A stretch of 64,000 nt of DNA from Carcharhinus longimanus (taxonomy: Eukaryota), in contig JASCQW010000081.1 in the NCBI GenBank assembly GCA_030264375.1, positions 53,313,614 to 53,377,613 of the forward strand, read 5' to 3'. Made by a program: the position numbers. This document shows, in pieces, positions 58,301-61,300 of this stretch (its first letter is position 1; the number at the start of each line of letters is the position of its first letter).

Positions 58301-61300
58301 TCCTACACCAGTGAACTATCAGAGTGCTTTAAAAAATGAATGAGGGCAGTGTAATAAATGGCACATCTGGTGTATATAAATATAGAAAAATACCTTCTCA
58401 GGAATGCTTTTATTAAAACAAAATGTAAGCATGCCCACATGCTGGTAAATCTAGGCTGCGAGGCAAGACTATTTTTCATAGGTGTGCCTATATCAGCAGT
58501 TATTTCTCTAGATGTTCTTTTATTTCCATTTCCTAACATTTGTATGGAAAGTGAAATGCCTACTGATGTCAGTAATTGTTTGAATGCATCCATGAAATGT
58601 TATTCAAAGTGTCCTGATGCAAAGCACTTGATTCTTGAGTATAATGTGCGTCCTGGTATCCCATCCCTTGATGATAAGCATGTGCTTTTCTACTTTATTT
58701 AATTCCTTATGTTTTCAGTTTTTGGATAAAGCTTTTAAAGTACTGTACAATCGAACAGGGCATCTGATATCATTGTAAATATTAACCTGGCCTATCTGTG
58801 GTCTAGCAGTAATGGAGCTTTGATAAGTAACCATAACAGACATGATTTTTGGTTATGTATGCAATGCTTCAACATGGTCTTTCATTTTTTTTAAATGACA
58901 TATTTTAATAGATACTAGTGTCAGTCAGCCGAAACCTTTGCGAAGAGTCCGACTTTATCCACAAATGGGGAGAACTGTTGTCAGAGGACGACAGTTTGTT
59001 AGCCGTAGAGGTAAGGCCCTTTTTAATATGTATAACATTGGTTTGGGAAAAAAATTGGAATGCTTTATAAGGGGAAAGGTGAATACAAAGTAGGAATTTA
59101 GGCTAGAGACTGAAGACATGATCCAAGAGATGGATTTTAAGCTTTTATAAGCGTTTGTAAGTGGAACAAGGCAATGATTCAAGAAGGAATGTCAGACAGT
59201 TGAGTTTTGACAAAGACGTGCCTAATGAAGGGGGGGAGCAGGTGGTGACTGAGAGGAGACAGGCAGCAAGCAATAAAACCATTCATATTCAAGCTGTGCT
59301 ATAAGGTTGCACGTGATGACTTAGATTTGAAGAACCTTGAAATTAGTTCAAAGAGCCAGAGAATTTTGCAAGGATGATCATGGGATTCGAGATCTAGATT
59401 TAACAAATGAAAGGTGTGGGTCCTGATATGCTCCCAAGAAGGGAACTTGGGATAATTGAGTGAGCTTCATTTTTATAACATAATTTAATATCTGCAACAC
59501 AATATACTTTGTATTAAAAATGACAAAGTATGCAATTTTTGCTTCATTTTTTATTATACAGTATTTGTGATAACAGGAATGAGACAAGTTGAATTAGAAA
59601 TTGCTGTCTGCAATAGAAATCATCTATTTGAATAGTAACCCCAATCAATCAACTTTTGAAATGATCATATCTGTTTCAAAATGACTTGTTAAAAGTATTC
59701 AGAAAAACAATTTAGTTACATTCAAAGGACAAGGCTCTATTTTTACCTTGTTAGGAGAAAGCAAATGTACCTTTTTGAGTAAAAGCATTATGTATGATTA
59801 TATATAAAATAGAATGGGACTAGCTGAAGTGTATTCTTCCCTAGCCCCAAACCAAAATATGTTCCAAGCTGTCAGTGCCTGGTTTGTAGGACTCCTGGCT
59901 CTGTCTGCTGCGATTGAATTGATTATAGTGAATAGGCATTCGCATATAGGGAAGTTTGCACACTTCTAGTACTGCGTTTTAAATATTTGCTGTGCCTCTG
60001 ATTATCCTTCCTCTGTGTTTCTCATATTGAACGTTCTGAAGCAGAATTGTAATTCAAAAAGTTATGGCTTTAGTCACGGTCTAAATTCTGATTTGGTTTT
60101 ACAAGTCAAATTAGTTTTCATTTCGGTTGTAAACATTTATCTGGGCTCTGCAGGCATATTATTTTGCAGATGGAAAGAGGAAGTATGATTTACAAAGAAA
60201 ATTTGAAATTTTTTCTATCGGTATTCACCAACTTTACATTTAATGATTGGCATCTAAAAATGTTTTGAAGTAGCGGTATAGTTTTAGGTAGGCTGTTCCC
60301 AGAATTTCAGTTTATTATTTACATGTTTCTTATTTGTAGGTATGACGCATTCAATGGCAGGAAGAGGAATTAACAGAGGAAATCATAATTGACTGCTTTT
60401 ACCCATTGCTGCATATTGATTCTTGATTGTCTTGTCGCAATAGAACAAAAATTCTGAACTTTGAGCATTTGTGGGTATTTGTCACAGTGTAATCTTCCCA
60501 TTGAAAAATAAACTGATTTCCTTTTACATTGTGGTGAAGCTTGAATTTTTTCTTGGGAAGTTTTTCTCGTTGCATCCATACAAGTCCTTTGTTACGCTTC
60601 TTCTTGTATTAATGGCCTTCCGGTTAACAGGATCAATGCTGTAGTATTTATCTAAATGGAGAGGTGGGAAGTGAGGGGTCAAAAAAAGCAATTTTTGGTT
60701 TCACTTTAAATTCAATTAATGTTTCCCCTGCAGGTATTACAGATTCTTTCTTTCCCTCCTGTTCAACAAAGGTATTGCTTAGACTTTGGTTGTGTTGTTA
60801 TGTCAGTGACATGCCTAGACTGCTCGTTAATAAAGTGCTGACCCAGGCAACTTCAAGCATTTGAAGTGTTGTAAATGAGACTTCATAAATAGATAATAGG
60901 CAGGAGAAACAACTTGGTTTACATCAGCTCCTGTGGCAATTCATTTTTGTTAGTGCTGTATGCAGATTTTCCTTTCTATGTTCAATTGCAAATTTTTGCA
61001 CAGGAACTTTTGGGTTGTACAACCCATTAAGCCTGATCTGCTGGCCTGTTAAATCATTGCTGACCTGTACCTAAACTGTATTTATTGACCCTTGTCCCAT
61101 GGCTCTTTATACATTTACCCAATAAGCACCTATTGAACTGTCTTAAAATTTCAAACGTCCAGATTTTTGAAAGAGTTTTCGATTTTACTTCCTCTTAAAT
61201 GGCGAAAGTTGGTAATTATAATTTGAAAATTGTACTGAATTCATAACACTTTTGATCTCTGGAGTGGTAATGGAAGCCTGAGAAACATTTTTTTATTGTG

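What the first reader, a model, noticed from the sequence alone, without database searches (positions are those of the whole stretch)
60290..60860. Interlocked antisense 3' ends of TPR and PRG4: each gene's 3'-processing signals sit in the other's functional sequence
Seen: the TPR stop (60390-60392, +) and PRG4 stop (60524-60526, -) are only about 130 bp apart. The first TPR AATAAA (60507-60512) predicts cleavage around 60525-60540, over the last PRG4 codons, so its U/GU-rich downstream element is the antisense of PRG4 coding sequence. The first canonical PRG4 signal (TTTATT 60311-60316) lies in the T-rich 3' splice-site region of the last TPR intron, so PRG4 mRNA would cover the whole TPR terminal coding exon in antisense. 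A second TPR AATAAA (60829) would reciprocally cover the whole PRG4 terminal coding exon. Established: human PRG4 and TPR are tail-to-tail with overlapping 3' ends. Inference: the overlap dates to the jawed-vertebrate ancestor and may be locked in by dual-use sequence, coupling a housekeeping gene to a tissue-restricted gene through transcriptional interference or poly(A)-site choice.
Basis: partly seen in the sequence, partly recalled or inferred. Interest (0 to 1): 0.72.

Follow-up and report, generated by a model that had tools for sequence, protein, structure and literature searches.

The report
Shark TPR and PRG4 tails overlap
Two neighbouring shark genes that point at each other stop only 131 bases apart, so their messenger RNAs very probably overlap at the tails, which is a common and mostly ordinary arrangement in vertebrate genomes.

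Summary
The window is elasmobranch, not human. TPR lies on the + strand: 27 collinear tblastn matches to Scyliorhinus torazame TPR, ending in the terminal coding exon 60340-60392. PRG4 (proteoglycan 4b) lies on the - strand, with its last three exons at about 63259-63107, 62049-61924 and 60651-60524. The stops are 131 nt apart.

TPR's AATAAA at 60507 is the best-looking poly(A) site of all 123 AATAAA in the window. It has a CA 15 nt downstream and 30 U+G in the next 40 nt. PRG4 has no common signal before TPR's last coding exon, so a tail-to-tail transcript overlap is very likely.

The "dual-use lock" is not supported:
- The PRG4 codons under TPR's downstream element are a 14-codon read-through extension. 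It is absent from 8 of 8 chondrichthyan orthologues that carry this exon.
- PRG4's AATAAA has a poor downstream element, ranking 110 of 123.
- TTTATT lies within 60 nt upstream of 5 of 27 TPR acceptors.

Transcript ends and cross-species DNA conservation could not be tested. Verdict: an ordinary convergent antisense gene pair, of low to moderate interest.

The parts
58912..59010 (+). TPR penultimate coding exon (acceptor AG 58910-58911, donor GT 59011-59012)
   Evidence: tblastn to S. torazame TPR P0003, 94% identity. Splice sites read.
59011..60339 (+). Last TPR intron (1,329 nt). Its last ~30 nt are the T-rich branch/polypyrimidine region.
60340..60392 (+). TPR terminal coding exon, including the TGA stop at 60390-60392. 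Phase 1: the last G of the previous exon plus GT makes Gly.
   Evidence: It aligns to the C-terminus of P0003 (E=0.007 for this 19-aa piece, collinear with 26 other matches).
60393..60528 (+). Predicted proximal TPR 3'UTR
   Evidence: Inference from the poly(A) signal context
60507..60512 (+). TPR proximal AATAAA
   Evidence: Rank 1 of 123 AATAAA by downstream U+G.
60527..60528 (+). CA dinucleotide, the predicted TPR cleavage point, directly next to the PRG4 stop codon
   Evidence: inference
60529..60568 (+). GU/U-rich downstream element of the TPR proximal site (30 of 40 U+G, with a U6 run)
60829..60834 (+). Second TPR-sense AATAAA, with an ordinary context
   Evidence: Rank 46 of 123.
60524..60651 (-). 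PRG4 terminal coding exon, including the TAA stop at 60526..60524. Acceptor AG at 60653..60652.
60569..60651 (-). Conserved part of the PRG4 terminal exon. The orthologues' proteins end at the codon at 60571..60569.
   Evidence: tblastn to Carcharodon P0093 (82%, E=3.8e-11), Rhincodon P0092 and Heptranchias P0094
60527..60568 (-). 14-codon C-terminal extension of PRG4 (GAG where orthologues stop, then 13 more codons). It is absent from 8 of 8 chondrichthyan orthologues that have this exon.
61924..62049 (-). PRG4 penultimate exon (acceptor AG 62051..62050, donor GT 61923..61922)
63107..63259 (-). PRG4 antepenultimate exon (boundaries approximate, taken from tblastn)
   Evidence: E=4.8e-19 to Carcharodon P0093
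60311..60316 (-). First canonical PRG4-sense AATAAA, 24-29 nt upstream of the TPR terminal exon, with a weak downstream element
   Evidence: Rank 110 of 123.
60488..60493 (-). Rare variant hexamer ATTACA. It is the only hexamer of 19 listed between the PRG4 stop and the TPR stop on the PRG4 strand.
60239..60244 (-). PRG4-sense ATTAAA, an alternative site inside the last TPR intron
59550..59555 (-). PRG4-sense AATAAA with a better downstream element (24 of 40 U+G), deep in the last TPR intron

Best explanation
This is the convergent junction of the TPR gene (+) and the PRG4/proteoglycan 4b gene (-) of an elasmobranch. The two stop codons are 131 nt apart, which is less room than two ordinary 3'UTRs need. 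The mature mRNAs therefore almost certainly overlap tail to tail, making this a convergent cis-natural-antisense pair.

TPR has a textbook proximal poly(A) site: AATAAA at 60507, CA at 60527-60528 and a GU/U-rich element at 60529-60568. It would cut right beside the PRG4 stop codon.

PRG4 has no common signal before TPR's last coding exon. Its 3'UTR most likely runs antisense through that exon and ends in TPR's last intron, at about 60295, 60219 or 59532.

The arrangement is best read as the passive result of a very short spacer between two convergent genes. A-rich hexamers arise easily on the antisense of TPR's T-rich acceptor region. The part of PRG4 'coding' sequence that lies under TPR's downstream element is a recent read-through extension, created when this lineage lost the ancestral stop.

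Shown: gene identities, exon ends, motif positions and the unusual PRG4 tail. Inferred: the cleavage sites, the transcript overlap and the absence of selection for the interlock.
For: - TPR exon chain and C-terminus.
- PRG4 exons and named orthologues.
- Stops 131 nt apart.
- The TPR site ranks 1 of 123 AATAAA. Its downstream U+G of 30/40 is reached by 0.71% of 40-mers.
- None of 12 common hexamers lies on the - strand between 60523 and 60317. Only ATTACA of 19 does.
- Four overlapping A-rich hexamers (60334, 60331, 60319, 60316) lie on the antisense of the TPR acceptor region.
- TTTATT lies upstream of 5 of 27 TPR acceptors.
- The PRG4 tail after the conserved Cys is 15 aa here. It is 1 aa in 8 of 8 chondrichthyan orthologues with this exon, and 1-8 aa in all 25 hits (of 33) that show the motif.
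- The region is single-copy in the window. It has no unusual RNA fold (z=-0.23) and no Rfam family.
- Convergent overlaps in UTRs are the commonly retained class (passages of PMC2330155; PMC1524920).
Against: - No transcript data were available, so no cleavage site is demonstrated.
- PRG4's first AATAAA has a weak downstream element (rank 110 of 123), so its true 3' end is uncertain.
- The absence of hexamers between the stops is not itself significant (P of none in 187 nt is about 0.10).
- Absence of selection is argued from base rates and one lineage-specific feature, not from cross-species DNA. A conserved interlock is therefore not excluded.
- Exon/exon overlaps shared between human and fish are rare: 1 with fugu and 5 with zebrafish in Table 2 of PMC2151771. 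If this overlap really is shared with mammals, it would be an unusual survivor, which hints at constraint.
Confidence: 0.7

Rival explanations
1. One reading: the overlap is an ancient, selected interlock. Each gene's 3'-processing signals are held in place by the other gene's functional sequence. Transcription or poly(A)-site choice of housekeeping TPR is coupled to tissue-restricted PRG4.
For: - The geometry is real.
- TPR's strong site cuts at the PRG4 stop.
- PRG4's canonical hexamer lies in the TPR branch/polypyrimidine region.
- TPR and PRG4 are neighbours in zebrafish-human synteny (passage of PMC8548687).
- Whale-shark TPR (P0001) and PRG4-like (P0092) sit on a contig of the same length, 81,141,125.
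- Deeply conserved exon/exon overlaps are rare.
Against: - The PRG4 codons under TPR's downstream element are a lineage-specific extension, missing in 8 of 8 chondrichthyan orthologues with that exon. They are not constrained coding sequence.
- The PRG4 hexamer has a poor downstream element (rank 110 of 123).
- The hexamer has a 5-of-27 base rate at TPR acceptors.
- No expression or conservation data of any kind could be obtained.
Confidence: 0.1
2. There is little or no transcript overlap. TPR uses the weak variants AATAGA/AACAAA at 60439/60444 (cleavage about 60466). PRG4 uses ATTACA at 60493..60488 (cleavage about 60473).
For: These variant hexamers exist and have moderate downstream elements: 24 of 40 and 20 of 40 U+G.
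Against: All three are rare variants (recalled from published hexamer surveys). TPR has a far stronger canonical site 63 nt further on. If either gene uses a canonical hexamer, the transcripts overlap.
Confidence: 0.07
3. The PRG4 stop at 60524-60526 is not the species' normal stop. The GAG at 60568..60566 is an assembly or sequencing error, or an individual's variant, at the ancestral stop codon. The true inter-stop distance would then be 173 nt, and TPR's cleavage site would lie in PRG4's 3'UTR.
For: All 8 chondrichthyan orthologues with this exon end exactly one residue after the conserved Cys. The extension is rich in K, N, S and F, as expected from translating the antisense of a U/GU-rich element.
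Against: Nothing in the window marks this position as low quality. No N run lies in 60290-60860. Tails of up to 8 aa occur in other, unnamed hits, so tail length does vary.
Confidence: 0.2

Closest known systems
Human TPR / PRG4 pair itself
   Same: The same two genes, tail to tail. As I recall, their annotated 3' ends overlap in the human reference. Both names occur (2 times each) in the full text of Fahey et al. 2002 (PMC2447278), which reports 56 overlapping RefSeq mRNA pairs (search listing and abstract only).
   Different: I could not read the passage because the body text is not held. I made no comparison with human sequence. The shark has a lineage-specific PRG4 tail that brings its stop up to TPR's cleavage site.
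Conserved convergent sense-antisense gene pairs of vertebrates (e.g. THRA/NR1D1, MKRN2/RAF1, MSH6/FBXO11)
   Same: Protein-coding genes on opposite strands that overlap at their 3' ends. Of 129 human-mouse pairs that keep the same overlap pattern, 120 are convergent (passage of PMC1524920).
   Different: Those pairs are defined from mRNA/EST evidence. Here the overlap is predicted from sequence signals only.
ACAT2 / TCP1 model of overlap origin
   Same: [quoted passage not shown] That is what PRG4 appears to do on the antisense of TPR's acceptor region.
   Different: That overlap was dated to the mammalian lineage. The age of this one is unknown.
Convergent yeast genes forming mRNA duplexes through overlapping 3' ends
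   Same: A short intergenic distance between convergent genes gives complementary 3' ends (abstract of PMC6993858 in the listing).
   Different: That case is yeast, with experimentally shown duplexes. Nothing comparable is shown here.

Membership tests
Convergent (tail-to-tail) cis-natural antisense gene pair | Two genes on opposite strands whose 3' ends face each other | tested here: met
   TPR on + ends at 60392. PRG4 on - ends at 60524.
Convergent (tail-to-tail) cis-natural antisense gene pair | Mature transcripts share exonic sequence in antisense | not testable with these tools
   No transcript data. Inferred from signal positions. Only a combination of three rare variant hexamers would avoid overlap.
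Convergent (tail-to-tail) cis-natural antisense gene pair | Arrangement conserved in other species (for the 'conserved pair' subclass) | tested here: inconclusive
   Whale-shark TPR and PRG4-like lie on a contig of the same length. Zebrafish tprb and PRG4 are syntenic neighbours. Orientation and overlap elsewhere were not testable.
Nucleoprotein TPR gene | TPR/MLP1/MLP2-like domain and collinearity with TPR orthologues to the C-terminus | tested here: met
   PF07926 at 42.4 bits (cut-off 36) on exon 6647-6850 and 28.7 bits (below cut-off) on 7948-8133. 89 proteins at E<=1e-3, nearly all named ones called TPR or translocated promoter region; a few carry non-specific names, and many hits are unnamed. 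27 collinear matches.
PRG4 / proteoglycan 4 (lubricin) | C-terminal hemopexin-like exons orthologous to named PRG4 proteins | tested here: met
   Penultimate exon: E=1.6e-13 to 7.4e-8 against 9 chondrichthyan records, 8 of them named proteoglycan 4/4b/4-like. Three exons align to their C-termini.
PRG4 / proteoglycan 4 (lubricin) | Pfam hemopexin repeat on the exons themselves | tested here: inconclusive
   0 families for single exons. The best PDB hit is the vitronectin hemopexin-like domain at E=0.25. Single exons are shorter than a blade plus its context. The joined model was not searched.
PRG4 / proteoglycan 4 (lubricin) | Two N-terminal somatomedin-B domains and a central mucin domain | not testable with these tools
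   These exons lie outside the window. By eye, the orthologues fetched show Cys-rich N-termini and long repeats; they were not scanned against Pfam.
Canonical vertebrate poly(A) site (hexamer, CA, GU/U-rich downstream element): TPR proximal site | AAUAAA, cleavage dinucleotide 10-30 nt downstream, GU/U-rich element within about 40 nt | tested here: met
   CA at +15, U+G 30 of 40, rank 1 of 123. Actual cleavage was not testable. The site model is recalled textbook knowledge.
Canonical vertebrate poly(A) site: PRG4 first canonical site | AAUAAA plus a GU/U-rich downstream element | tested here: not met
   The hexamer is present and CA lies at +16, but the downstream U+G is 15 of 40 with no GU triplets. 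Rank 110 of 123.
Dual-use (doubly constrained) overlapping sequence | The same nucleotides serve a conserved function in both genes | tested here: not met
   For TPR's downstream element versus the PRG4 CDS, the underlying codons (60527-60568) are absent from 8 of 8 chondrichthyan orthologues with this exon. For the PRG4 hexamer versus the TPR branch region, conservation was not testable and the base rate is 5 of 27.

The most novel reading that the evidence does not exclude
The TPR/PRG4 3' overlap has persisted since the jawed-vertebrate ancestor. That would make it one of the very few exon/exon overlaps shared by cartilaginous fishes and mammals. It would persist because each gene's 3'-end signals are embedded in the other's transcript, so that switching PRG4 on in joint tissue shifts TPR poly(A)-site use or dosage. 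The shark's stop-loss extension would then be a snapshot of a coding region invading the partner's poly(A) site.
Probability: 0.08. Interest if true: 0.55.

Novelty: new member of a known kind. Interest (0 to 1): 0.22.

Why it matters
If the overlap is real and ancient, it would join a very small set of exon/exon overlaps conserved between fishes and mammals: 1 human-fugu and 5 human-zebrafish in Table 2 of PMC2151771. It would also offer a simple natural case for asking whether a tissue-restricted gene perturbs 3'-end formation of an essential housekeeping neighbour. As it stands, it is a well-formed but ordinary convergent gene junction. Its most concrete new detail is the apparent stop-codon loss that lengthens shark PRG4 by 14 residues and moves its stop onto TPR's predicted cleavage site.

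Tried and rejected
- Pfam on single PRG4 exons and neighbouring - strand ORFs gave 0 families (0 of 7 - strand pieces, some in the wrong frame; 0 of 2).
- The word-index protein search found nothing with the PRG4 terminal exon or the antepenultimate exon. The full HMMER scan with the penultimate exon did find named orthologues that share many words, so these blanks reflect the tool and not absence.
- PDB sequence search: the penultimate exon gave only vitronectin at E=0.25 and a galectin at E=0.88. The terminal exon gave 0 hits.
- Rfam on the whole window gave 0 families.
- The RNA fold of 60393-60570 had z=-0.23, so no special structure.
- Self-BLAST of 60200-61000 found only itself, so the junction is not repeat-derived within this window.
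- Literature:
  - Three searches naming PRG4 and TPR, with 'antisense' (8 papers) and 'overlapping' (26 papers, 15 listed) required, and with antisense-class terms under a 3-of-6 rule (343 papers, 10 listed, none holding PRG4 or TPR), turned up no paper that discusses this pair. Fahey 2002 may be an exception, but its body is not held.
  - The 'TPR' hits in the PRG4 review PMC11940178 are misspellings of TRPV2.
  - PMC2330155 and PMC2151771 do not name either gene in their main text. Their supplementary tables, which may list the pair, are closed.
- I considered a bidirectional shared terminator or hairpin and rejected it.
- The spliced (joined) PRG4 and TPR models were deliberately not built or searched. 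All searches were exon by exon.
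Full report
**What is in the sequence**

Reading 59900-61300 confirms every coordinate of the finding:
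- TGA at 60390-60392 on the + strand.
- TAA on the - strand at 60526..60524.
- AATAAA at 60507-60512 and 60829-60834 on the + strand.
- TTTATT at 60311-60316, which is AATAAA on the - strand.

The two stops are separated by 131 nt (60393-60523). The window holds 15 N runs, 1,582 N in all. None lies in 60290-60860, and I left them all untouched.

**Whose genes these are, and from what organism**

A 68-aa + strand exon (6647-6850) found 89 proteins at E<=1e-3 among 221 candidates. Nearly all the named ones are called TPR or translocated promoter region (a few carry non-specific names), and many hits are unnamed. The best hits are Rhincodon typus (93%) and Scyliorhinus torazame (89%). Pfam gives TPR_MLP1_2 on this exon (42.4 bits, cut-off 36). 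It also gives it, below cut-off, on the next exon (28.7 bits).

tblastn of S. torazame 'nucleoprotein TPR-like isoform X1' (P0003, 1,290 aa) against the window gives 28 rows with E<1. Of these, 27 are collinear on the + strand from 6653 to 60389, at 74-100% identity, six of them at 100%. The other row is spurious (E=0.70).

The last two matches define the TPR 3' end:
- The penultimate exon is 58912-59010, with its donor GT at 59011.
- The terminal coding exon is 60340-60392. Its translation aligns to the orthologue's C-terminus.

The window is therefore from an elasmobranch close to, but not identical with, S. torazame. It is not human, and I made no comparison with human sequence.

**PRG4**

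Single-exon searches with Pfam, the word-index search and the PDB gave nothing significant. The best PDB hit was the vitronectin hemopexin-like domain at E=0.25.

The full HMMER scan with the 41-aa penultimate exon (61925-62047, -) found 33 proteins at E<=1e-3, eight of them at E<=1e-10. The top nine are chondrichthyan records: Heterodontus, S. torazame, Rhincodon, Carcharodon, Heptranchias, Hypanus, Rhinoraja, Narcine and Callorhinchus. Eight are named proteoglycan 4, 4b or 4-like; the S. torazame record is named only 'hypothetical protein'. The tenth is Salmo trutta proteoglycan 4b.

tblastn of four orthologues' C-terminal 330 residues maps three - strand exons:
- about 63259-63107
- 62049-61924
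- 60651-60524

Splice sites and phases were read. They fit: the penultimate exon ends in phase 1, and G plus AT gives the Asp that begins the conserved terminal-exon peptide.

I left out the step of joining exons into a spliced model.

All 8 chondrichthyan PRG4 proteins that include the terminal exon end exactly one residue after a conserved Cys. The ninth, the S. torazame model P0091, runs through the donor into sequence that matches the window's intron. It is therefore uninformative.

In the window, the codon where the orthologues stop is GAG (60568..60566). The frame continues for 14 codons to the TAA at 60526..60524. The tail after the Cys is 15 aa here. Of all 33 hits, 25 show the motif, and their tails are 1-8 aa: 11 with 1, 7 with 4, 4 with 5, 1 with 6 and 2 with 8. 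Twenty-three of the 33 hits are unnamed.

The '130 bp between stops' is thus specific to this sequence. With the ancestral-type stop the distance would be 173 nt.

**How good are the 3'-end signals**

I scored every AATAAA in the window: 46 on + and 77 on -, 123 in all. The score was the U+G content of the 40 nt following the first CA that lies 10-30 nt downstream. The scheme is a simple one of my own, based on the recalled textbook model of vertebrate poly(A) sites.

- **TPR site at 60507.** It ranks first of 123. CA lies 15 nt downstream (60527-60528), followed by 30 of 40 U+G with a U6 run and GU triplets. Only 0.71% of 61,794 N-free + strand 40-mers reach 30. From hexamer density alone, an AATAAA within 121 nt of the stop has a chance of 0.085. 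It is the context, not the hexamer, that makes this site convincing. Its downstream element (60529-60568) falls entirely inside the 14-codon PRG4 extension (60527-60568).
- **AATAAA at 60829.** It is ordinary (rank 46). If used, it would indeed place TPR's 3'UTR across the whole PRG4 terminal coding exon.
- **PRG4 strand.** None of 12 common hexamers lies between the PRG4 stop and 60317. With a list of 19, only the rare ATTACA at 60493..60488 does.
- **The A-rich cluster.** A cluster follows at AATAAG 60334, AAGAAA 60331, AATAAT 60319 and AATAAA 60316. All lie on the antisense of TPR's T-rich acceptor region.
- **AATAAA at 60316.** It has a poor downstream element (15 of 40, rank 110 of 123).
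- **Later PRG4 candidates.** These are ATTAAA 60244 and AATAAA 59555 (24 of 40).

The hexamer lists are recalled from published surveys and come from no call.

The lack of hexamers between the stops is not itself significant (P of none in 187 nt is about 0.10). TTTATT lies within 60 nt upstream of 5 of 27 approximately placed TPR acceptors. Its presence here is therefore close to a one-in-five event, not a special feature. It may overlap a candidate branch point; that consensus is recalled and this is inference only.

**What it most likely is**

The most likely reading is an ordinary convergent cis-antisense gene pair. The geometry makes a tail-to-tail transcript overlap very likely. It would be avoided only if TPR used AATAGA/AACAAA at 60439/60444 and PRG4 used ATTACA at 60493, all of them rare variants.

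With TPR's strong site and PRG4's first canonical hexamer, the overlap would span roughly 60295-60528. It would include all 53 nt of TPR's terminal coding exon in antisense.

The evidence does not support the idea that the overlap is locked by dual-use sequence:
- The PRG4 'coding' sequence under TPR's downstream element is a lineage-specific read-through of what is 3'UTR in relatives. Its K/N/S/F-rich peptide looks like translated antisense of a U-rich element.
- The PRG4 hexamer is a low-information motif in a T-rich acceptor region, with a weak context.
- The region is single-copy in the window. It has no unusual fold (z=-0.23) and no Rfam match.

**Comparison with what is known**

Convergent overlaps in UTRs are the class preferentially retained in animal genomes (passage of PMC2330155). 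[quoted passage not shown]

The idea that a gene adopts a poly(A) signal that happens to lie on its neighbour's non-coding strand is the ACAT2/TCP1 model, as retold in the Background of PMC2151771.

Most vertebrate overlaps are not conserved. Table 2 of PMC2151771 lists 1 conserved exon/exon overlap for human-fugu and 5 for human-zebrafish (section read).

For TPR/PRG4 itself:
- A zebrafish paper lists PRG4 among the conserved neighbours of tprb/TPR (passage of PMC8548687).
- Whale-shark TPR and PRG4-like proteins lie on a contig of the same length.
- Both gene names occur in the full text of Fahey et al. 2002 on 56 overlapping human mRNA pairs (search listing and abstract). The body is not held, so I could not read the passage.
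- That the human annotation shows overlapping 3' ends is my recollection and was not checked.
- Two searches requiring both names (8 papers; 26 papers, 15 listed) and a third under a 3-of-6 rule (343 papers, 10 listed, none holding either name) turned up no paper that discusses the pair's overlap or its evolution.

**What stayed unchecked**

- No vertebrate genome or transcript collection was available. Neither the cleavage sites nor cross-species conservation of the inter-stop DNA could be tested.
- Supplementary tables of the overlap surveys, which may list this pair, are closed.
- Whether the GAG codon is fixed, polymorphic or an error is open.

**Verdict**

This is a new (shark) instance of a known kind of arrangement, and probably of a pair already known in human. 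Interest is low to moderate. Its most concrete new detail is the PRG4 stop-loss extension that abuts TPR's predicted cleavage site.

Noticed in passing
window 60527-60568 (-): PRG4 reads 14 codons past the position where 8 of 8 chondrichthyan orthologues with this exon stop. GAG replaces the stop, and the tail after the conserved Cys is 15 aa instead of 1. This is an apparent stop-codon loss, or else an error or variant.
   Followed up: yes
P0091 (S. torazame GCB68180.1) versus window 61895-61923 (-): The deposited S. torazame PRG4-like model does not splice at the penultimate exon's donor. It ends in residues that align to the window's intron, so it is probably a gene-model artefact that lacks the true terminal exon.
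   Followed up: partly
window 39446-39637 (+): A 64-aa TPR exon is 100% identical to S. torazame isoform X1 (P0003). It is absent from isoform X2 (P0002), so it is probably a cassette exon.
   Followed up: no
P0001 and P0092 (Rhincodon typus): Whale-shark TPR and PRG4-like proteins are both reported on a contig of length 81,141,125. This is consistent with linkage of the two genes in another shark. Distance and orientation are unknown.
   Followed up: no
window, TPR introns (e.g. about 8800-9800, 55400-56200): Long ORFs on both strands look, by eye, like fragments of retroelement (LINE-type endonuclease/reverse transcriptase) genes. Several N runs sit inside copies of an interspersed repeat. 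They were not scanned against any library, and the N runs were left as they are.
   Followed up: no
window 60311-60334 (-): Four overlapping A-rich poly(A)-like hexamers (AATAAG, AAGAAA, AATAAT, AATAAA) lie on the antisense of one polypyrimidine/branch region. This shows how acceptor regions can seed antisense 3'-end signals.
   Followed up: partly
window 1-64000: No Rfam family reaches its gathering score anywhere in the 64 kb, on either strand.
   Followed up: yes
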